Of a stretch of DNA of 64,000 nucleotides, positions 2,200-64,000 are shown in pieces (positions within the stretch are counted from its first letter, which is position 1; every line of letters starts with the position of its first letter). The translations under genes and the position numbers were made by a program. The notes below the pieces were generated by a model, which was not told the DNA's origin, ran no database searches, and saw nothing but the letters and a program-made list of their open reading frames with translations. The DNA comes from a virus, in IMG/VR virus record IMGVR_UViG_3300042463_000422, positions 5,966 to 69,965 of that record; one strand, given 5' to 3'.

Positions 2200-3177
2200 T
2201 TACTGGTCCTTGTAGTTGCGGTTGATGATCTTGAATCCGAGTGGTCGTCCGATGCCCATGGCTTCTCCATCGATCGGGCGAACAACGATTCCCTCGGCAG
2301 GCTTGCCGTCAGGCAGCGTCACGATGTCGGCGACGCTTTGCAGGTGCTCAATGGTTTCATCGAGAGTAACGGTAACTACAGGAACCCATTTGCACTGGAA
2401 CTTGTCTCGGCACACCTGAGCCATATCGATGTATCGAAGCCATTTGCCATTGGTGAGATCACGGATCTGGTAGACGACGAGCGTAGGCTCAGTGAGCTTC
2501 AACTGGTTCCCCTGCACACCCGGCCCCATCAACTCGCCTTGGATGACGCAGTTGGCACCCGGCGGGATGGTCAGCTTCCTCGCAGCAATCCAAAACCCGT
2601 TCGAGGCTGATTCCTTGAGCGACAGGTTGCGGCTACAGACGTGCGTGATGTTACCATCGACAACCACGATGGTGCATGAAGAACCGTCCAGCTTCAGCGT
2701 GGCGACGCACGGCTTCGACAGCGTGTGCTTCACGATATCAGGATGGCTCAGGCCATTGTCCTCGTCGGTCTTCGGGGCGTAGGAGGTTGGGAAAGCTCCA
2801 GCCACCTCACCGGACAGGCACGCCGGGATCTCCTTCTCGTACTTCTTGATACCCAGTTCGCCGCCCACGTCAGCGCCCTCCTGCCAGCCACGGACGTGCT
2901 CAGGAAGTATCGAGAGCGGCTGGACAAGTCCCTGACTGTACTCACCGCGCAGGCGGATCGTGTTGAGCCGAATCGGCTTGTCGCCCTTCTTCAGGAACGC
3001 CGACCACTCGGCATCGGGCAAGATGGTGTCGATGGGGATGAAAACGACGGACTCACCGGCCTTGAACTCGCCCTTGCGGACGATGATCTGCCACCCGAGA
3101 ACCTTGGCGATTTCGAGCGAGTCTGCGTTGCTGTGAGGAACGATGTCCTTGATGACTTCGATGCTGGCTAGTTTCAT
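2200..3177 (-). CDS. ATP-dependent RNA ligase, DRB0094 family
   Basis: N-terminal PHSNADSLEIAKVLGWQIIVRKGEF, motif I KLDGSS, QGELMGPGVQGN, EGIVVR, FKIIN. Confidence 0.9.
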   Translation of the reverse strand: MKLASIEVIKDIVPHSNADSLEIAKVLGWQIIVRKGEFKAGESVVFIPIDTILPDAEWSAFLKKGDKPIRLNTIRLRGEYSQGLVQPLSILPEHVRGWQEGADVGGELGIKKYEKEIPACLSGEVAGAFPTSYAPKTDEDNGLSHPDIVKHTLSKPCVATLKLDGSSCTIVVVDGNITHVCSRNLSLKESASNGFWIAARKLTIPPGANCVIQGELMGPGVQGNQLKLTEPTLVVYQIRDLTNGKWLRYIDMAQVCRDKFQCKWVPVVTVTLDETIEHLQSVADIVTLPDGKPAEGIVVRPIDGEAMGIGRPLGFKIINRNYKDQ

Positions 3178-52491: not shown

Positions 52492-52566
52492 TGGTAGCGG
52501 GGGGTGGACTCGAACCACCGACCGTCTGCTTATGAGGCAGCCTAGCTACCACTGCTACACCCCGCC
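52492..52566 (-). tRNA. tRNA-Met(CAT), initiator-like body
   Basis: GGCGGGG UG UAGC AGUGGUA GCUA G GCUGC CUCAUAA GCAGA CGGUC GGUGG UUCGAGU CCACC CCCCGCU A CCA. Confidence 0.93.
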
Positions 52567-53339: not shown

Positions 53340-54521
53340 CTAACTAAAGATGCTCACGTCCCTGATGTCAACGACCAGTCTGAACCCACAGGTGGGCTCG
53401 CCGCGTTCGTCGCATGGGATGGTGACTGCTCGCTTTCCTTCAGCGTTTACAAGGGTCTTCACGAACTGCACCGGCTCTCCGTCCGGCAGGTTGATCCGCC
53501 CCTTCTTCACGATGTAGATGCGCTCAGGTTTGAACGTGAACGCGCTGGATTGGGAGACGCGCTGGCCGTTGGTGACCACTGTGATCTCCTGCATGTTGCC
53601 TGCTTTGACGCGAGCCTCGGACACGCCTTGTCTTATGGCGTCGGTATCAACGTGAACGTACTGGGAGAAGATCCGCGGATCGAGGTGACCCGAGACCTTG
53701 GTTGCCAGAATGGTGCTCATGCCGCTGTTGGCCAGCATTGAGACGAATGAGTGGCGGAGGCTGTGGAACCGCTTGCTGCGATCGATGCCCGCCTTGTCTG
53801 CGATGTACCTGAATGCGTCACTGCCACTGCTGGCAATGACGTGTCGGTCCATGTTGACCCTGCTGCCTGCTTGATCCGACACGAAGTCGGTTGGGCTGGC
53901 AGTGGGGGATTCAGCACGCAGGGCCTGCAACGCCCTGCCAAGCTCGTCTGTTGGGTTGAATGGTATGATCGACTCGGTTCCTGTCTTCACACGCCTGATG
54001 CGGATGAAGCATTTGTCCATGTCGATGTCACCCCACCGCAGCATCATGCAGTCCGCGATGGACATGCCGGTGTTCCATCCAAGAAGTATGACCCAGTCCA
54101 TCCAGTGGCCGGCCGCTGTGTGTCGCAGCTTGATGTACTCTTCGTGAGTGATGGCGTTGACGCTCCGCTCGTCGCGGATGGTTGGAGTTCGCACGGCGTG
54201 GTGCGGACTGGTATTTACTCGACCAGTGGTCTCAAGCCACCTCAGGAACCGACGCACCGAGTTCCAGTACTCCTGAGCAGTGCGCGGCTTGTGGTTCTCG
54301 AAGAGCCGGGTGCAGTAGGTCTGCAGGTTCTCCGACGTGATGGTGTCGTGATGGCACGCCTTCATCCAAGATATCCACTTATTGATCCAAAGTTTCGAGA
54401 AGTGGATTGTAGCTGGGCGGCGACCCGGGAAGTCGCTGTTGTGATATGTCACAGCAAGATGCGCAAGCTGTGATGGGTTCATGTAGATCACATGTCCTTG
54501 GTACGTAGTTTCTGTGGTCAT
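53340..54521 (-). CDS. tyrosine recombinase/integrase family protein (first catalytic Arg replaced by Ser)
   Basis: SAM-like N-terminus, TGMSIAD, KT, FHSLRHSF, SGH, QYVH. Confidence 0.88.
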   Translation of the reverse strand: MTTETTYQGHVIYMNPSQLAHLAVTYHNSDFPGRRPATIHFSKLWINKWISWMKACHHDTITSENLQTYCTRLFENHKPRTAQEYWNSVRRFLRWLETTGRVNTSPHHAVRTPTIRDERSVNAITHEEYIKLRHTAAGHWMDWVILLGWNTGMSIADCMMLRWGDIDMDKCFIRIRRVKTGTESIIPFNPTDELGRALQALRAESPTASPTDFVSDQAGSRVNMDRHVIASSGSDAFRYIADKAGIDRSKRFHSLRHSFVSMLANSGMSTILATKVSGHLDPRIFSQYVHVDTDAIRQGVSEARVKAGNMQEITVVTNGQRVSQSSAFTFKPERIYIVKKGRINLPDGEPVQFVKTLVNAEGKRAVTIPCDERGEPTCGFRLVVDIRDVSIFS

Positions 54522-55544: not shown

Positions 55545-56261
55545 TCATGCTGCGACCATCTGCTCGATCTGGTGTCTGACCACGAACCCAGTGGTGTCCT
55601 TCTTGGCCTCGCCCTTGGGCTTGAGTCCAACGACTGTTCCGCGAGGATCAATGAACCTCAGGTCATGCTGGTCGCCGTCGATGACAGGCCAGCTGTTCCA
55701 GCGAGAGGGTCTCTCACCCTCGAAGATGACGGCCACGTTCCCGCCACGGGCAAGGATGTCGAGGCAGTCCTCGTTGTTGCTCCCGCTGTAGGAGAACGTG
55801 AGCTTGTAGTTGGGCGGCAGGTCGCCCTTGAGCATCTTGCCAACGCGATACGCCGACTTGGTGTAGTCGTAGAACTGTACGTGTGGGTGCTTCTTTATGA
55901 CGCTGTGCTGACCAAGTTCCCAAGCGATGTCACTCGTCCCATTGAGGCGGACGCAGGGCTTGAGGCCGTCGCGCTCAGCATCGAGCTTCAGCTGCTTGAT
56001 GTCGTAGTTCAGTGCGTTCATGAAGTCGTCGCGCTGAGAGAAGAACCAGCGCGTCTTGCGAATGCGGGCCAGCTGGACGTTGGCGAACTTGCCGCGACCG
56101 GACGTGTTGAGACACGCCTCGGTGCAGCCAGCATTGCGCCATGGGCAGACCTCAAACCCAGACAGGTTGCCCGGTGCGAGGTAGAGGATTCCAGTGAGGT
56201 AGCCAAGGGCTGTTCCCTTGGGTGTCTTGGCGTCAGTGTTGACGCCCAGCAGTTGGTACAT
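55545..56261 (-). CDS. gp88-like Cys-cluster protein
   Basis: ILYLAP, VCP...GC...CL..SGRG, VRLNGTSDI, FYDYTK, LTFS, IDGD.HDLRF.D, VGLK.KG. Confidence 0.85.
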   Translation of the reverse strand: MYQLLGVNTDAKTPKGTALGYLTGILYLAPGNLSGFEVCPWRNAGCTEACLNTSGRGKFANVQLARIRKTRWFFSQRDDFMNALNYDIKQLKLDAERDGLKPCVRLNGTSDIAWELGQHSVIKKHPHVQFYDYTKSAYRVGKMLKGDLPPNYKLTFSYSGSNNEDCLDILARGGNVAVIFEGERPSRWNSWPVIDGDQHDLRFIDPRGTVVGLKPKGEAKKDTTGFVVRHQIEQMVAA

Positions 56262-56276
56262 AGTTCCTTGTGAGTA

Positions 56277-56305
56277 GGTGTAATACACCTGTTGAGGTTA
56301 CGCAA
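56277..56305 (-). promoter_or_regulatory. promoter/operator copy 8: TTGCGT-N10-GGTGTATTACACC
   Basis: Same spacing. Confidence 0.75.
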
Positions 56306-59442: not shown

Positions 59443-60573
59443 TTACTCGACGTTGCCACCGGGAGCGAAGTCCAAGGCTGATGCGACACGGGCATCTACT
59501 GCACCGACGTTGCCGTGCAGACGCTGGTTGCGGAGGACGCACCAGGAAGCCATCCACGAGGGTAGGATGGCGAGGAAGCCGGACCAGTTGGTCGGCACGC
59601 TGTTGTTCTTGTTGGCGCAGTGATCGAACAGGTGCCTACACAACAGTGCCCACGACTCGATCTTCACCACGTTGGTCGAGCCATTGGCGCAGCGGAACTC
59701 GATGGTCTTGTACTTCTTGTACGCCTCGAAGTTGATCGCAGCGTAGCGACCAGCACTCGCATTGTATCGATCAGAGTCAGGGTTGTTGTTTACCCACTTG
59801 CAGTACTTGTTACGAAGCCGTGATTCACTCACCAGCTTCTTGAGCATGGGGTACAGCAGCGTGAGCCGATCGTAGGTTTGCGACGCGGTGAGAAGCATCC
59901 TGTCGTCGGACGGCTCGGTAGGAAGGTGACGGGCATCGATGTGGATGTGGACACCGCACTTCTTGTTAATCCGATACCCCTGCAGCTGCTTCTCCAGTGA
60001 GAGCAGACCCATGAGCCGACCATTGCTGGCCCAGGTCATGCGCTTGATTTCGATGCCGCCGCTGTCGAGTGATCCATCGTTGCCGACCTCGGTCAGACCA
60101 TTGTCTACCGGGAATTTTCCGTATGGGTAGTAGCACTCGATCTCGACCGACACCAGTCGGCCGACCAGCTTGGGTGCCTGCTTGGCAGCTTCCATCGCAG
60201 ACAGTTTTGAGACCGGCTTGGTCGGTGGGAAGAGCTTGTTGCGATGGTGAGCTAACTGGATGCGATTGCTTCCAGCATAGTCACCGATCAAGCTATCAGG
60301 AAGGGTGCTGTTCTTGAGTGAGTAGAACGACTTGGCGTTCCGCATCATTGACGCCAGCAGCGTGTCCTTGGCTCGCACCGGAGCACCGTGGACAGGGGCA
60401 AGGCTGTGGCCATAAGACGTTCTGTCCACAAGGTGGATGCACTGCTTGTAGCGGTGAGCGTCGCTTGAGTAGACGCCTGGGTATTTACTACCAGCAGCGA
60501 CCTCCGTCTTCTTAACGTAATTGAGGCCGCCGGTGTAACCCGCAGAGCGGAACATGGAGATGACTTGATACAT
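59443..60573 (-). CDS. putative amidoligase (amidoligase_2 / COOH-NH2 ligase)
   Basis: SVEIE, DGSL, IEI, CGVHIHID, RYAAIN, TIEFR..GS; start re-set to MYQV. Confidence 0.9.
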   Translation of the reverse strand: MYQVISMFRSAGYTGGLNYVKKTEVAAGSKYPGVYSSDAHRYKQCIHLVDRTSYGHSLAPVHGAPVRAKDTLLASMMRNAKSFYSLKNSTLPDSLIGDYAGSNRIQLAHHRNKLFPPTKPVSKLSAMEAAKQAPKLVGRLVSVEIECYYPYGKFPVDNGLTEVGNDGSLDSGGIEIKRMTWASNGRLMGLLSLEKQLQGYRINKKCGVHIHIDARHLPTEPSDDRMLLTASQTYDRLTLLYPMLKKLVSESRLRNKYCKWVNNNPDSDRYNASAGRYAAINFEAYKKYKTIEFRCANGSTNVVKIESWALLCRHLFDHCANKNNSVPTNWSGFLAILPSWMASWCVLRNQRLHGNVGAVDARVASALDFAPGGNVE

Positions 60574-60689
60574 AGGTGACTGAGTTGATGTTCTGACGCG
60601 GTGACGTTGTGTCACCGGCTTGGTCGTGGTTGACCACAGCACACAACCCATCTCTGTGAGAGCGATGGGTTGGCTGCTTTGGTCAGCAG

Positions 60690-60971
60690 TTAGTCGGTCC
60701 AGAGGATGTCCAGATCGGCCGATTGCCAGACGATGCAGGTGTCCGGGTCTCGGCCGTCTGTGATTATGCAAGCCTCCCAATCGAAGAGTCCGCGGAGTGG
60801 CTTGGATGTCTCGATGATGTGCTCAGTGTCTTCACCGAACTCACGCTTGGTCCACTTGCGGACCAGAGTTTCGAGGTCCAGTGGCTCATTGGCAGCAATC
60901 TCCATGATGGATTGCGTGCCCTCGCGCCGGTTGGTGACCAGCAGGTACTGGTCTGGGTATGTGGTGCTCAT
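60690..60971 (-). CDS. acidic hypothetical early protein
   Basis: 93 aa, ATGA coupled. Confidence 0.7.
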   Translation of the reverse strand: MSTTYPDQYLLVTNRREGTQSIMEIAANEPLDLETLVRKWTKREFGEDTEHIIETSKPLRGLFDWEACIITDGRDPDTCIVWQSADLDILWTD

Positions 60972-61321
60972 GCGAGTTCTTCCACCCAGTCGCGTTGCTT
61001 ACCGGCCGGTGTAACGCGGTGCATTATGGCACCACCCACCATTGACTCCCACCCGCTGAACCGGTGGGTCAGACCGCCCTTGACGCCCCATGTCAGGAAC
61101 TCCGTGGGCTGTAGCTTGTCGGGGGTCTTGGCGACCTCTCGATAGATCTCCTCGCGCACCACCTCGATGGCGGAGGCTGCAGACTCAGCGATGACGGGCG
61201 AGAACACCCGCTTCTTGGACCAGAACAGGCCGCTGGTCACGGCGACGACGGTGAACTTGAAGTACCGCCGCCCCTTGTAGGTGTCGAGGCAGGCGGTGGC
61301 AGGGATGGGACGTGGTTTCAT
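60968..61321 (-). CDS. hypothetical early protein
   Basis: 117 aa. Confidence 0.7.
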   Translation of the reverse strand: MKPRPIPATACLDTYKGRRYFKFTVVAVTSGLFWSKKRVFSPVIAESAASAIEVVREEIYREVAKTPDKLQPTEFLTWGVKGGLTHRFSGWESMVGGAIMHRVTPAGKQRDWVEELA

Positions 61322-61324
61322 AGG

Positions 61325-61750
61325 TTAGACGGCTGCTGCTTCACAGAGGTCTTCCCAGACGGAGTCCTGTCTGGACTTGGCTACGGTTTTGAGGTGCTCG
61401 AATTGAGCGGGCTTCATTGCGTCGAAGCCTTCAAGCCGGGCCATACGGAGAGCATTTTGGAGGGTGAATTCCATACGCCTGTTCTCAATCAGAACAACAT
61501 CGAGGTCTTGTTCTATGTACGCTGACTCAACACGGTCAATGTACATCACAATACGTCCACTGTTATTGCTCTGAGTGACCTCCACTTTGATGATCTTAGT
61601 GGCTACTATATAGGTATCACTATTCGACACATAGCACATGCCGATCAGTGACATTAGGTTGTTGTAGATCTCATCGTTGTCGAGTTTCACGATGAGGTTG
61701 CCGATGCTGTTGTGCAGAGCTTTTAGCTCTTCAATAGTACTTGTCTTCAT
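61325..61750 (-). CDS. hypothetical protein, visibly AT-rich
   Basis: 141 aa; atypical codons. Confidence 0.7.
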   Translation of the reverse strand: MKTSTIEELKALHNSIGNLIVKLDNDEIYNNLMSLIGMCYVSNSDTYIVATKIIKVEVTQSNNSGRIVMYIDRVESAYIEQDLDVVLIENRRMEFTLQNALRMARLEGFDAMKPAQFEHLKTVAKSRQDSVWEDLCEAAAV

Positions 61751-61753
61751 AGG

Positions 61754-62110
61754 TTAGTTCTTGGCGAGTTCAGGTGACAGGTGGCGGTTGACCTTGGTCC
61801 AGTAGGACTTGGTCGCAGACTTGGTGTGACCGGTGGGGCCACCATTCCAGATTCGGGCAGCGTCTTCAGGGCTTTTGCCCTTGGCCCACTTTCGCAGGTA
61901 GAGGTCACAGACCTTCCGGGCATCGGCACGATTGGTCATGCCATTCCATGTGTAGGACGTGCCGTAGAAGTGATTAACGTCTTTAACGACCTCGCGGTGG
62001 ATTTGGAGAGCGCCGATCGCCTTGCCGCCATCACCGACAGCGGTGTCAGGGTTGCGATAGCCGCCTGATTCGACAGCCATGAGGGCTGAGATGAGTGCAC
62101 TGTAGTTCAT
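61754..62110 (-). CDS. lysozyme-superfamily hydrolase (i-type/destabilase-like)
   Basis: AVESGG..AVGDGGKAIGALQIH...DVN, ARIWNGGP, T..YW.KV. Confidence 0.85.
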   Translation of the reverse strand: MNYSALISALMAVESGGYRNPDTAVGDGGKAIGALQIHREVVKDVNHFYGTSYTWNGMTNRADARKVCDLYLRKWAKGKSPEDAARIWNGGPTGHTKSATKSYWTKVNRHLSPELAKN

Positions 62111-62313
62111 CGGAGGATGCCCTCCGCTTTAAGGTGTGCCTCGAATAGCGGCAATGCCGCTTTGGCGGTCCTTGCCTTGATGCCCAGTGCCTTGACCATG
62201 GACAAGGCTGAGGGGCCGTGTGAACGACGCATACCCAAGCTCTCCAGCTTGAGCGCGCCCTTGATAGCGAGCATCCGATAGGCGTGGATGCCATCGGGAG
62301 TGTTGATAGTCAT
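62107..62313 (-). CDS. small basic phage protein (MTINTPDGIHAYRMLAIKGALKLE..GM)
   Basis: ATG 62313, ATGA-coupled to lysozyme. Confidence 0.75.
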   Translation of the reverse strand: MTINTPDGIHAYRMLAIKGALKLESLGMRRSHGPSALSMVKALGIKARTAKAALPLFEAHLKAEGILR

Positions 62314-62363
62314 AGTGAACAGAAGAACCCGCCAAAACCGGACGGGAACGGAACGAGGAACGT

Positions 62364-62418
62364 CGCTGGGCTTGTGACCAGCGTGCCGCATTACCGGGCC
62401 GAAGCCCGTCACTCTGCG
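62364..62418 (-). ncRNA. twister ribozyme, circularly permuted (P5-type)
   Basis: CGCA GAG UGA CGGGC UUCG GCCCG G U|AA UGC GGC A CGCUG GUCACAAGCC CAGCG; P1, P2, P4, T1 (UCAC/GUGA) and T2 (GGC/GCC) all pair. Confidence 0.88.
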
Positions 62419-62419
62419 A

Positions 62420-62605
62420 TTAGAACCGAAGCAGTAGGCCAGCGACCAGTAGGCCGACGACGCCTGCGATTGTGGGTGTCTCGCCGTGCTCCACGATCAC
62501 CCGCACTTCACGGGTGCCGACACGGACGACGTGGTGATTGGCTTTGGGCCACGCTTGGCGGGCGTAGCCGATGCCCCAAGGGCGTGACCTGCATTCGAGG
62601 ATCAC
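62420..62605 (-). CDS. small protein with C-terminal TM segment
   Basis: GTGA coupled, GGAGG SD; IAGVVGLLVAGLLL. Confidence 0.6.
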   Translation of the reverse strand: MILECRSRPWGIGYARQAWPKANHHVVRVGTREVRVIVEHGETPTIAGVVGLLVAGLLLRF

Positions 62606-62775
62606 GCGAGCCTCCGATCATGGAAAGCCAACTCGCTCCTGAGTTGGCGGATGTACCGCTGAGCAACACGGTCATCAGCGAGAGCCGTGTTGATCGAATG
62701 CTCCAAGCGGAGCTTCAGTTGCCGAACCCGGCGAACAGTCTCGGCTGGATTGAGTGGGATGAACTTGGCGCTCAT
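62602..62775 (-). CDS. 57-aa basic helical protein (MSAKFIPLNPAETVRRVRQLKLRLEHS...)
   Basis: Hand-translated; ATG directly after the upstream TAA; not in the ORF track. Confidence 0.65.
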   Translation of the reverse strand: MSAKFIPLNPAETVRRVRQLKLRLEHSINTALADDRVAQRYIRQLRSELAFHDRRLA

Positions 62776-62982
62776 TTAGTTGGCGTGAGTGGTGAGCTTT
62801 TCCAGAGCCTCGACGGTGATAGTCCCGTAGGACTTCGAGAACTGAGCACGGACGTCCGGATCATTCTCAATGAGCATCGCCATGGCTCGCACGGCGGCAC
62901 CGATAGCCAGAGCCTCGGTCACTTCGATTGACTGACTACGCCCGTTGAGGGCCTTGGATACAATTGAATCGATGGGAAACAT
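62776..62982 (-). CDS. 68-aa hypothetical protein whose AUG lies in hammerhead stem I
   Basis: MFPIDSIVSKALNG... Confidence 0.7.
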   Translation of the reverse strand: MFPIDSIVSKALNGRSQSIEVTEALAIGAAVRAMAMLIENDPDVRAQFSKSYGTITVEALEKLTTHAN

Positions 62983-63038
62983 AGGACGGGCCAGAAGCCC
63001 GTTTCGGCCCACTTGTGGCGGGGCCATCGTCAGCTATG
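62980..63038 (-). ncRNA. hammerhead ribozyme, type I
   Basis: CAUAG CUGACGA U GGCCC-loop-GGGCC GAAA CGGGC UUCUG GCCCG UC| CUAUG; full core and three stems. Confidence 0.9.
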
Positions 63039-63049
63039 GCCGGGACCGC

Positions 63050-63451
63050 TCAGGCGAGGAAGGCCTCGGCCTCGGCGATGGTGGCAAACTTGCCACGGTT
63101 GACCAGTTGCTGGGCGAGGGTAACCGGCTTGGCCACCTCTTCAGCCTTGATGAACTTAATCTGGGCAGAGTTCTTCCGCACGTCGACCGTATCGGCCACG
63201 AAGCCCTTGGACGCCAAGGCGGAGACGGTTGCGGCAACGGTCGCAGCACGGGCCGCAGATTCATCGGAAAGGGCAGCGTTGACGTAGTCCTTGAGGGCAT
63301 TGCCCTTGAGTCCAAGGGTCTTGCCGGTTTCCTTGAGGGTCTTGGCGCAGGCGGTCCCGATGAAGTAACGGGTACCCATATTGCGACCCTTGAATCCGAG
63401 AATGGGCGCGGAGGTGGAAGGCAGGGTGGCGACGGCGTTGGTGACGGACAT
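63050..63451 (-). CDS. Ala/Lys-rich early protein (133 aa, MSVTNAVATL...)
   Basis: Strong codon bias; ATG 63451. Confidence 0.8.
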   Translation of the reverse strand: MSVTNAVATLPSTSAPILGFKGRNMGTRYFIGTACAKTLKETGKTLGLKGNALKDYVNAALSDESAARAATVAATVSALASKGFVADTVDVRKNSAQIKFIKAEEVAKPVTLAQQLVNRGKFATIAEAEAFLA

Positions 63452-63469
63452 ATTGATTGAGAGTTGCAA

Positions 63470-64000
63470 GCGTTGGCCCGTATCGGCCCAAGTCTGAAGA
63501 CTTGGAATAAACCGCACGGTGGACACCCTAGGCGACGTGGACGCCGCTTGCATCTAGGGCAAACCGGTTGACCCCAACGGGATCGGACCGGCAAAGAGAA
63601 TGGACCCAACGGGTCCGGGTAAGGGTTGAAGTGTGCAGTGACCCTGCACGGGTATGGGTAGACTTTACCTTTAACGGCATACCTATAGGTACACCGGGCC
63701 GCTTGCCATTGCTGAAGAACCACGGTCGCGCCCTCCATGGTCAATGACCATGTAGGCTACCCTCAGTGCCAACTCGCTCCGATAGCTCATTGCCCAATTC
63801 GACCGCAGACTGTCAGGTGGATTCCGACACACCCCTTGCGGGGCCTTGAACCGACTCACGGGACCGGCCACACCCTTGAGAGGGCCGCCGTCTCCGACCT
63901 TACGGTTGAGCTTTGAAAGAACCGTCAGCACCGCCTCGCTTTCGCTTGGCACTACCGACACCACCCCTAGGAAACGCCTTCCTTTTCTCCGAATTGTGGG
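63470..64000 (-). ncRNA. large structured non-coding region / leader RNA (may extend beyond the window)
   Basis: About 12 hairpins, GNRA loops in minus orientation, long-range AGUGCCAA/UUGGCACU pair; no credible ORF. Confidence 0.5.

What the first reader, a model, noticed from the sequence alone, without database searches (positions are those of the whole stretch)
62364..63038. Hammerhead plus twister ribozyme pair bracketing three early genes: a self-excising, potentially circularisable mRNA cassette
Seen: on the early (minus) transcript a complete hammerhead would cut after C62985, and a complete twister would cut between U62393 and A62392. Between them lie exactly three small ORFs (62776-62982, 62602-62775, 62420-62605). 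Established: both ribozyme classes leave a 5'-OH and a 2',3'-cyclic phosphate, the ends joined by RtcB and exploited in the engineered Tornado circular-RNA system. Inference: the phage cuts its early polycistron without protein, as T7 does with RNase III, releasing a 592-nt RNA that may be stable or be circularised. The phage's own DRB0094-family ligase is expected to need 3'-OH/5'-P ends, and no end-healing kinase is visible here, so host RtcB is the likelier ligase.
Basis: partly seen in the sequence, partly recalled or inferred. Interest (0 to 1): 0.92.

Follow-up and report, generated by a model that had tools for sequence, protein, structure and literature searches.

The report
Hammerhead–twister pair flanking phage gene cassette
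Two genuine self-cleaving RNA motifs, a hammerhead and a twister, bracket a small swappable block of genes in a lake phage; this is a clean new example of a known phage habit, and nothing here shows that the cut-out RNA becomes a circle.

Summary
Observation confirmed. A Twister-P5 ribozyme lies at 62366-62418 (-), scoring 59.7 bits against a gathering score of 37.6. A type-I hammerhead lies at 62980-63038 (-). Its core is complete but has one extra U after A9. It scores below Rfam's threshold (14.7 vs 34 bits). My descriptor finds it once in the window, against 0.005 hits expected per shuffled window.

All 10 related contigs with enough upstream sequence show the same order: hammerhead, then 288-1063 nt holding small ORFs (one to four where listed), then twister. 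Five distinct hammerheads pair canonically in 70 of 70 helix cells. Eight of 14 helix positions carry compensatory changes.

The most likely role is protein-free cutting of a polycistronic phage mRNA into units with 5'-OH and 2',3'-cyclic-phosphate ends.

Perreault et al. 2011 (PMC3088659) already described ribozymes flanking variable gene blocks in prophages. They proposed this processing role, and they looked for circular products without finding any.

Circularisation has no support here. The cassette ends are not complementary, the phage has no RtcB, and no usable RNA data exist.

Verdict: a new member of a known kind, of moderate interest.

The parts
63050..63553 (-). Upstream gene (167-aa ORF; the true start may be internal). 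Its stop codon lies 11 nt before the hammerhead.
   Evidence: ORF list and translation. Homologues lie directly upstream of the hammerhead in L003 (44%), L013 (74%) and L016 (44%). No Pfam or PHROG family.
62980..63038 (-). Type-I hammerhead ribozyme, expanded subtype. Stem I is CAUAG/CUAUG, the core is CUGACGA + extra U ... GAAA, and predicted cleavage is 3' of C62985. The 3' strand of stem I contains the ORF1 AUG.
   Evidence: Sequence. Hammerhead_1 aligns at 14.7 bits, below gathering. Unique descriptor hit. Shuffles give 0.005 hits per window. Covariation in 5 distinct copies. The same subtype occurs in L016, L141 and L142.
62776..62982 (-). Cassette ORF1 (68 aa); its AUG lies 2 nt after the predicted hammerhead cut.
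   Evidence: Weak protein match in L013 (32% over 59 aa, E = 3.6e-5). 80% nucleotide block shared with L141. No family.
62602..62775 (-). Cassette ORF2 (57 aa); its ATG directly follows the ORF1 TAA.
   Evidence: 84% nucleotide block shared with L142. No homologue in the other relatives. No family.
62420..62605 (-). Cassette ORF3 (61 aa, GTG start overlapping the ORF2 stop, GGAGG upstream, hydrophobic C-terminus).
   Evidence: Homologues in L016 (85%) and L003 (48%), and at the start of L143.
62366..62418 (-). Twister-P5 ribozyme; predicted cleavage between U62393 and A62392.
   Evidence: Rfam RF02684, 59.7 bits against gathering 37.6, full model. Above gathering in relatives L003, L004, L005/L013, L015 and L016. 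P1 varies with compensatory changes.
62314..62365 (-). Conserved 3' extension of the twister: GUUCC repeats, then a terminator-like hairpin at 62346-62328 with a U-rich tail, ending just before the next ATG.
   Evidence: Nearly invariant in 5 relatives (alignment A2). Flagged by the terminator scan. L139 and L143 carry a variant whose hairpin pairs through compensatory changes. The motif occurs only in this phage group among all loci fetched.
62107..62313 (-). First gene after the twister block (68 aa from ATG 62313).
   Evidence: phrog_19182, E = 1.1e-8. 94% identical homologue in L003. Absent at this position in L004, L016 and L013.

Best explanation
Two unrelated self-cleaving ribozymes sit in the two intergenic gaps of a minus-strand phage operon. 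As the RNA is made, the type-I hammerhead cuts after C62985 and the Twister-P5 cuts between U62393 and A62392. This splits the transcript into three pieces:
- an upstream mRNA whose 3' end is the folded hammerhead body with a 2',3'-cyclic phosphate;
- a 592-nt tricistronic RNA that starts 5'-HO-CU-AUG and ends in the twister P1 hairpin with a cyclic phosphate;
- a downstream RNA that starts with a 5'-OH, the rest of the twister and a conserved hairpin.

The likely purpose is to give each block defined, structured, nuclease-resistant ends whatever genes lie inside, uncoupling its stability and translation from its neighbours.

Shown here: the motifs, their positions, their conservation and their covariation. 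Inferred: cleavage itself, co-transcription, and the consequences for stability and translation.
For: - The twister scores above Rfam's gathering score in the window and in L003, L004, L005/L013, L015 and L016.
- The hammerhead is a unique descriptor hit, against 0.005 expected per shuffled window.
- Twelve contigs carry this twister. All 10 with enough upstream sequence have a same-strand hammerhead 288-1063 nt upstream; the other 2 end too early to tell.
- In five distinct hammerheads the core is intact: only the free N7 position varies. 70 of 70 helix cells are canonical pairs, and 8 of 14 helix positions show double compensatory changes. L141 keeps the extra U and changes stem II from G-C to A-U.
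- Both ribozymes sit within 1-11 nt of the preceding stop codon.
- Cargo genes are mosaic while the ribozyme blocks stay fixed.
- In a wider sample of 93 P5-pattern twisters on 79 viral loci, 12 have a strict-descriptor hammerhead within 2.5 kb on the same strand and 0 on the opposite strand.
- Literature: prophage hammerhead arrays flank variable gene blocks and cleave in vitro and in E. coli, with polycistron processing proposed (PMC3088659, passages). The review PMC6765202, section 13, says the same. An extra residue between A9 and G10.1 is tolerated, and a U there raised trans-cleavage 3-4-fold in CChMVd (PMC3705267, passage).
Against: - There is no RNA-level evidence of any kind. No RNA holder is listed, and the laid contigs were uninformative.
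- The window's hammerhead is below Rfam's gathering score (14.7 vs 34 bits). With my own model built from the compact relatives it scores as noise (10.3 bits, E = 1.1).
- It carries an inserted U next to the core, a class of deviation that Perreault et al. initially rejected in their screen.
- Loop-loop or pseudoknot contacts needed for fast cleavage in vivo were not established.
- Co-transcription of the flanks is assumed. The terminator-like hairpin after the twister might end many transcripts.
- Covariation comes from essentially two hammerhead subtypes plus a few point changes, so the number of independent events is small.
Confidence: 0.72

Rival explanations
1. One reading: the excised 592-nt RNA is joined end to end by host RtcB into a circular tricistronic mRNA, a natural counterpart of the engineered Tornado system.
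For: Both ribozyme classes leave a 5'-OH and a 2',3'-cyclic phosphate, which are the ends RtcB joins (PMC8782182 introduction, passages). The phage's own ligase belongs to PF09414. No kinase (PF13671) or RtcB was found in the phage, so a host enzyme would be needed.
Against: - In none of the five cassettes do the first 30 nt pair with the last 45 nt better than shuffled controls. Shuffles at least as good as the real ends numbered 180, 84, 147, 196 and 81 of 200.
- A closed circle would place no Shine-Dalgarno sequence before the ORF1 AUG.
- Perreault et al. looked for circular or spliced products of prophage hammerhead arrays and detected none (PMC3088659).
- The host, and hence the presence of RtcB, is unknown.
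- Three full-text searches listed no natural phage case.
Confidence: 0.07
2. The ribozyme blocks are mainly conserved 'joints' for modular gene exchange. Their fixed sequences supply homology for recombination that swaps cargo genes between related phages. RNA cleavage would be secondary, or would act as an insulator for whatever cargo arrives. This reading does not exclude the best explanation.
For: - Homology blocks between the window and 9 relatives start at the twister's 5' edge (WIN-oriented 1579-1583) in 7 of 9 comparisons. They end at or just after the next ATG (1688-1703) in 6 of 9, and at the hammerhead's 3' edge (1024) in 2 of 9.
- The twister plus about 60 nt is nearly invariant where the flanking genes are unrelated (L013) or about 45% identical (L004).
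- Cargo is mosaic.
Against: - Breakpoints at gene borders are usual in phage mosaics and need no special element.
- ORF-level shuffling also occurs inside the cassette, away from any ribozyme.
- Intact catalytic cores and compensatory helix changes show selection on RNA structure, not just on DNA homology.
Confidence: 0.3
3. The twister acts with the conserved hairpin and U-rich tract as a 3'-end module. Transcripts terminate at the hairpin and the twister trims them. This would release a small RNA of about 70 nt (A62392 to about 62320) and leave the cassette with a cyclic-phosphate end. Downstream genes would then need read-through or their own promoter.
For: - The terminator-like hairpin at 62346-62328 has a U-rich tail.
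- It is conserved in relatives, and the L139/L143 variant keeps the pairing through compensatory changes.
- It occurs only in this phage group.
Against: - The U tract is interrupted (UUCUUCU), so the hairpin would be a weak terminator.
- No sigma-70-like promoter follows it: 0 were found in 61000-64000.
- The next ATG lies 15 nt after the hairpin, which suits a 5'-UTR hairpin equally well.
- There are no RNA ends to test it.
Confidence: 0.2
4. The hammerhead is an inactive relic or a chance look-alike. Only the twister cuts, so nothing is excised.
For: Below Rfam's gathering score. Extra U beside the core. The MFE fold of the isolated 71 nt does not give the hammerhead fold, and its z-score is only -0.74.
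Against: - Chance expectation is 0.005 per window.
- The hammerhead is present in 10 of 10 informative relatives.
- The core is intact and 8 of 14 helix positions are compensated.
- The extra U is retained in L141 alongside a compensatory stem II change.
- A U at that position is tolerated or even favourable in a natural hammerhead (PMC3705267).
Confidence: 0.07

Closest known systems
Clustered hammerhead ribozymes flanking genes in prophages (Perreault et al. 2011, PMC3088659; passages read)
   Same: Several same-strand self-cleaving ribozymes bracket single genes or short gene blocks whose identity is not constant. The context is a phage with an integrase. Processing of long phage transcripts was proposed, and circular or spliced products were considered.
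   Different: Here the pair is heterologous (type-I hammerhead plus Twister-P5). It is constant across a whole phage lineage, and a conserved hairpin follows the twister. Nothing has been tested experimentally.
Twister ribozyme, type P5 (Rfam RF02684), and the shared twister/hammerhead gene neighbourhood (Roth et al. 2014, as summarised in PMC6765202; the primary paper is not held)
   Same: Full-length match above the gathering score. The twister lies on the same strand as a hammerhead in a phage context. My own sample reproduces the association.
   Different: None for the twister itself. The specific 3' extension with a hairpin is confined to this phage group.
Tornado engineered circular-RNA system (recalled; not read here)
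   Same: Two flanking ribozymes leave a 5'-OH and a 2',3'-cyclic phosphate on the released RNA.
   Different: Tornado relies on a designed stem that brings the two ends together for RtcB. No such end complementarity exists in any of the five natural cassettes.
Type-I hammerhead filling an intergenic UTR just before an ORF, in fusarivirus PtFV1 (PMC13725137, passages), and HHphage of haloviruses HF1/HF2 (PMC3088659)
   Same: The ribozyme spans almost the whole intergenic gap and cuts a few nt before the next start codon: 7 nt in PtFV1, 13 nt in HF1/HF2, 2 nt here.
   Different: Those are a eukaryotic RNA virus and an archaeal virus. Here the AUG is itself part of stem I, and only in the expanded subtype (window, L016, L141, L142). 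Compact-subtype relatives have a leader of about 60 nt.
RNase III processing of the T7 early polycistron
   Same: Intergenic cuts separate the cistrons of a phage operon and leave structured ends.
   Different: T7 uses a host protein enzyme and leaves 5'-P/3'-OH ends. Here the RNA would cut itself and leave 5'-OH and cyclic-phosphate ends.

Membership tests
Twister ribozyme, type P5 (RF02684) | Covariance-model score at or above Rfam's gathering score over the full model | tested here: met
   59.7 bits against 37.6, model positions 1-58 of 58.
Twister ribozyme, type P5 (RF02684) | Helices maintained by compensatory change in relatives | tested here: met
   P1 is GGGC/GCCC, GGGGCC/GGUCCC, GGGGC/GCCCC or CAGGG/CCCUG in different relatives. 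P2 and P4 never vary in this set, so they say nothing either way.
Twister ribozyme, type P5 (RF02684) | The two pseudoknots (T1, T2) of the twister fold | not tested
   The Rfam model carries no pseudoknots, and I did not map them by hand.
Twister ribozyme, type P5 (RF02684) | Self-cleavage at the U-A step | not testable with these tools
   Needs in vitro transcription. The site U62393|A62392 is assigned from the alignment plus recalled knowledge.
Hammerhead ribozyme, type I (RF00163) | Covariance-model score at or above Rfam's gathering score | tested here: not met
   14.7 bits against 34; seen only in a 101-nt scan and absent from larger scans. Relatives score 22.4 bits (L003) and 22.7 bits (L016), also below threshold.
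Hammerhead ribozyme, type I (RF00163) | Conserved core C3 U4 G5 A6 N7 G8 A9, G12 A13 A14, A15.1-U16.1, H17 | tested here: met
   All are present in the window and in 4 further distinct copies. The window has one extra U between A9 and G10.1, a known natural variation (PMC3705267; PMC4209133).
Hammerhead ribozyme, type I (RF00163) | Three helices around the core with no mispair next to it (criterion of Perreault et al. 2011) | tested here: inconclusive
   Stems I and III pair up to the core, and G10.1-C11.1 is present. Stem II needs a one-nucleotide bulge beside the core in the window and in L016.
Hammerhead ribozyme, type I (RF00163) | Helices supported by covariation; motif rarer than chance | tested here: met
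   70 of 70 cells are canonical and 8 of 14 positions are compensated. Shuffles give 0.005 hits per 64 kb.
Hammerhead ribozyme, type I (RF00163) | Tertiary contact between stems I and II (loop-loop or pseudoknot) | not tested
I did not test it across relatives.
Ribozyme clusters flanking gene blocks in phage transcripts (Perreault 2011) | Two or more same-strand self-cleaving ribozymes bracketing short gene blocks of non-constant identity, in a phage or prophage | tested here: met
   (cargo 288-1063 nt, mosaic). Integrase and terminase. L004 has a third, twister-P1-like element (47.5 bits, below gathering 67.2).
Ribozyme clusters flanking gene blocks in phage transcripts (Perreault 2011) | All elements lie on one transcript and cleave | not testable with these tools
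   No RNA data.
Ribozyme-plus-RtcB circular RNA (Tornado-like) | Ends of the released RNA held together by a complementary stem | tested here: not met
   End-to-end duplex energies are no better than shuffles in 5 of 5 cassettes.
Ribozyme-plus-RtcB circular RNA (Tornado-like) | RtcB available; junction-spanning RNA exists | not testable with these tools
   The phage lacks RtcB. The host is unknown. No RNA holder is listed.

The most novel reading that the evidence does not exclude
In hosts that carry RtcB, the hammerhead- and twister-released cassette is closed into a circular polycistronic mRNA. That would make this lake-phage lineage the first natural 'Tornado': a DNA phage that makes exonuclease-proof circular messages for a swappable set of small genes, with the two ribozyme blocks doubling as the recombination joints through which cargo is exchanged.
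Probability: 0.07. Interest if true: 0.85.

Novelty: new member of a known kind. Interest (0 to 1): 0.4.

Why it matters
The role of self-cleaving ribozymes in bacteria and phages is still called 'largely elusive' (PMC6765202, section 13). This lineage offers a tidy natural experiment. The same two ribozyme blocks stay fixed while the cargo between them changes from 288 to 1063 nt.

Two hammerhead subtypes place the cut either 2 nt or about 60 nt before the first ORF. That makes three ideas directly testable with a handful of constructs:
- ribozymes as insulators that give any cargo defined ends;
- cleavage-dependent exposure of a start codon buried in stem I;
- ribozyme blocks as recombination joints.

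It does not open a new category.

Tried and rejected
REJECTED OR UNINFORMATIVE
- N4-like identity. I guessed this from the 2650- and 3053-aa ORFs and the direct terminal repeats. I dropped it because PHROGs give an integrase, a DnaB-like helicase and a terminase, and nothing for the 3053-aa ORF. A tblastn of the 709-aa ORF gave only partial tail-fibre-like hits below 60% identity.
- blastn of 61500-64000 against GenBank phages: no match.
- My covariance model R1, built from three compact hammerheads. It recovers the compact copies at 77-79 bits, L016 at 14 bits, and the window's copy only as noise (10.3 bits, E = 1.1) among 35 hits with filters off. It could not give a joint alignment, so covariation was counted by script and not with the count of structure pairs. 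The MAFFT alignment A1 of the five hammerheads is misaligned between subtypes.
- RNAfold of the isolated hammerhead region does not return the hammerhead fold (z = -0.74). This is uninformative for a small three-way junction.
- Host search. The exact twister 28-mer has 0 hits in 185,579 species genomes. A TerL search gave an 81%-identical hit on an 11-kb contig binned in an Armatimonadetes MAG, and a 35% hit in a Hydrogenedentales MAG. This is too weak to name a host or to ask whether it has RtcB.
- RNA evidence. No RNA holder is listed. Laying the two small-share runs labelled RNA-Seq (X23, X24) gave only assembled contigs over 62203-62422 from relatives, with no joints and no ends. This says nothing about expression, cleavage or circles.
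- No third ribozyme in the window's leader, 63040-64000.
- L006-L011, distant loci found through the 118-aa protein, have no ribozyme hit. They are probably not the same operon.
- L139 and L143 end before the expected hammerhead position and were dropped from the 10-of-10 count.

LITERATURE LIMITS
- The Roth 2014 and Weinberg 2015 primary papers are not held. Statements about them come from the review PMC6765202 or are recalled.
- Supplements are closed. Perreault 2011's Figures S1-S3 and Dataset S1 might already list similar hammerhead-twister neighbours or the circular-RNA assays.
- 'Not in print' for a natural phage ribozyme-pair circle rests on the listings only.
Full report
WHAT THE WINDOW IS

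The window is bases 5966-69965 of a complete 69,965-bp viral record with direct terminal repeats. PHROG matches give a large terminase subunit, a DnaB-like helicase and a tail-fibre domain. They also give an integrase at 53340-54521 (-), which lies beside a tRNA at 52495-52566 (-). My first guess of an N4-like phage, based on the ORFs of 2650 and 3053 aa, found no support and I dropped it. DNA holders of the stretch are lake-water metagenomes. The host is unknown.

THE TWO RIBOZYMES

Rfam's Twister-P5 model matches 62366-62418 (-) over its full length at 59.7 bits, against a gathering score of 37.6.

The hammerhead is not found by Rfam at its gathering score:
- Nothing appears in the 64-kb or 1.1-kb scans.
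- In a 101-nt scan Hammerhead_1 aligns full-length at 14.7 bits (gathering 34), with every core letter matched.

Read directly, the element runs as follows:
- stem I CAUAG (63038-63034);
- CUGACGA, then one extra U;
- stem II GGCCC/GGGCC with a 10-nt loop;
- GAAA;
- stem III ACGGGC/GCCCGU;
- C17 = 62985;
- stem I CUAUG (62984-62980).

A descriptor search for all three hammerhead topologies finds this site and no other on either strand of the window. Two hundred dinucleotide shuffles of the window gave a mean of 0.005 hits.

The extra U is a known natural variation. In the CChMVd (+) hammerhead an extra residue at this place is tolerated, and a U there raised trans-cleavage 3-4-fold (PMC3705267, passage). 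Penelope-element hammerheads also conserve a nucleotide there (PMC4209133, passage).

ANATOMY

- The real upstream gene is 63050-63553 (-). The overlapping 236-aa frame is spurious.
- The hammerhead starts 11 nt after that gene's stop codon and ends with the AUG of ORF1.
- ORF1 (62776-62982), ORF2 (62602-62775) and ORF3 (62420-62605) are packed end to end.
- The twister starts 2 nt after the ORF3 stop codon, with one base between.
- The stretch between the two predicted cuts is 592 nt.
- None of the three proteins has a Pfam or PHROG family.

RELATIVES

Protein-guided and exact-pattern scans brought in five further viral contigs and six metagenome contigs that carry the same twister. That makes 12 twister-bearing contigs including the window.

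Ten of these have enough upstream sequence to judge, and all ten have a same-strand type-I hammerhead upstream. The cut-to-cut cargo lengths are:

| Locus | Cargo (nt) |
|---|---|
| L013 and L015 | 288 |
| L141 | 355 |
| L138 | 434 |
| L140 | 488 |
| window | 592 |
| L016 | 680 |
| L004 | 963 |
| L142 | 970 |
| L003 | 1063 |

L139 and L143 end too early to tell.

There are two hammerhead subtypes:
- a compact 47-nt form (L003, L004, L013/L015, L138, L140);
- an expanded form of about 60 nt (window, L016, L141, L142).

Across five distinct copies the core is intact and only the free N7 position varies. All 70 helix cells are canonical pairs, and 8 of 14 helix positions carry double compensatory changes. 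L141 keeps the extra U and changes a stem II pair from G-C to A-U. This covariation rests on two subtypes plus a few point changes, so the number of independent events is small. Together with the chance control and the constant position, it still makes a real hammerhead by far the best reading.

CARGO AND JOINTS

The cargo is mosaic:
- The ORF3 family occurs in the window, L016 and L003.
- A 71-aa family occurs in L016, L003 and L004.
- ORF1 has relatives in L013 and L141.
- ORF2 has a relative only in L142.

Nucleotide homology between the window and nine relatives behaves as follows:
- it starts at the twister's 5' edge in 7 of 9 comparisons;
- it stops at or just after the next ATG in 6 of 9;
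- it stops at the hammerhead's 3' edge in 2 of 9.

The twister and about 60 nt after it are nearly invariant even where the neighbouring genes are unrelated. That extension holds GUUCC repeats and a terminator-like hairpin at 62346-62328 with a U-rich tail. In L139 and L143 both the twister P1 and this hairpin differ but still pair, so the hairpin is a real RNA feature.

WIDER SAMPLE

A degenerate P5 pattern returned 119 stretches of viral contigs. Seventy-nine of these loci were analysed, holding 93 twisters. Twelve twisters had a strict-descriptor hammerhead within 2.5 kb on the same strand (5 upstream, 7 downstream) and none on the opposite strand. Ten loci had several twisters in tandem.

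So same-strand ribozyme clustering is general in phages, and the order of the two classes is not fixed.

WHAT IS KNOWN

- Perreault et al. 2011 (PMC3088659, passages read) state that multiple hammerheads flank individual genes or short gene blocks of non-constant identity in prophages.
- They say this implies processing of long phage transcripts.
- They considered spliced or circular products but did not detect them.
- Such arrays cleaved in vitro and in E. coli.
- The review PMC6765202 (sections read) records that twister was recognised through the gene neighbourhood it shares with hammerheads. It says processing of polycistronic transcripts has been suggested and that the role remains open.
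- Paired hammerheads near phage-like genes are active in vivo in D. vulgaris (PMC8782182, passages).

What is added here is:
- a heterologous pair held constant across a lineage;
- the start codon inside stem I in one subtype;
- the twister-hairpin block;
- the breakpoints at ribozyme edges.

MECHANISM

Most likely (0.72), both ribozymes cut co-transcriptionally and divide the operon RNA into three pieces with 5'-OH and 2',3'-cyclic-phosphate ends and structured termini. This would insulate each block's stability and translation from its neighbours. Cleavage, co-transcription and these consequences are all inferred, not shown.

CIRCULARISATION

- In five cassettes, the first 30 and last 45 nt pair no better than shuffled controls.
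- The phage has an RNA_ligase-family gene (PF09414 with a PHA02142 OB domain) at 2200-3177, but no RtcB and no AAA_33 kinase.
- No RNA run holds the phage, and the two small-share runs gave only contigs of relatives.

The circle is not excluded, but nothing supports it. I put it at 0.07.

VERDICT

This is a new member of a known kind, with interest 0.4.

Noticed in passing
window 62314-62365 (-); L139 and L143 after the twister: A conserved block follows the twister: GUUCC repeats plus a terminator-like hairpin with a U-rich tail, ending just before the next ATG. The L139/L143 variant keeps the hairpin through compensatory changes. It may be a weak terminator, a 5'-UTR hairpin or a protein site.
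   Followed up: partly
The same holds in L016, but not in compact-subtype relatives, whose stem III is ACCCC/GGGGU.
   Followed up: partly
L003 4606-4618, L004 2962-2974, L013 10905-10917: In compact-subtype relatives the 3' strand of stem I can also pair with a sequence 5 nt downstream (UGUGGAUAACACG/A, UGCGGAUCACGCA). This gives three-way covariation with the 5' strand of stem I. It may be a post-cleavage refolding or a switch hairpin. The ~60-nt leader after the cut is conserved although the first ORF differs.
   Followed up: partly
L004 2397-2462: A third ribozyme-like element: twister-P1 at 47.5 bits, below gathering 67.2, E = 1.8e-7. It lies upstream of the 144-aa gene that precedes the hammerhead, so this relative has three elements delimiting two successive blocks. 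The window has none in 63040-64000.
   Followed up: partly
L030 2723-5402; L076 54-993: Unrelated viral contigs carry tandem arrays of P5-pattern twisters on one strand. L030 has five, spaced about 540-950 nt apart (four at roughly 550 nt). L076 has three, spaced 410-505 nt apart.
   Followed up: no
window 63554-64000 (-): The region upstream of the first gene is conserved at the nucleotide level in L003, L013 and L016 (spurious ORFs share residues). It has no Rfam match.
   Followed up: partly
window 2200-3177 (-): An RNA-ligase-family gene (PF09414 plus the PHA02142 OB-fold domain PF21189). No RtcB or AAA_33 kinase was found in the genome.
   Followed up: partly
window 59443-60780 (-); 55545-56288 (-); 53340-54521 (-): Amidoligase_2-domain protein, GP88-family protein, and an integrase next to a tRNA. 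The phage looks temperate.
   Followed up: no
L136 3001-4473: A terminase 81% identical to the window's lies on an 11-kb contig binned into an uncultured Armatimonadetes MAG. This is a weak host hint only.
   Followed up: no
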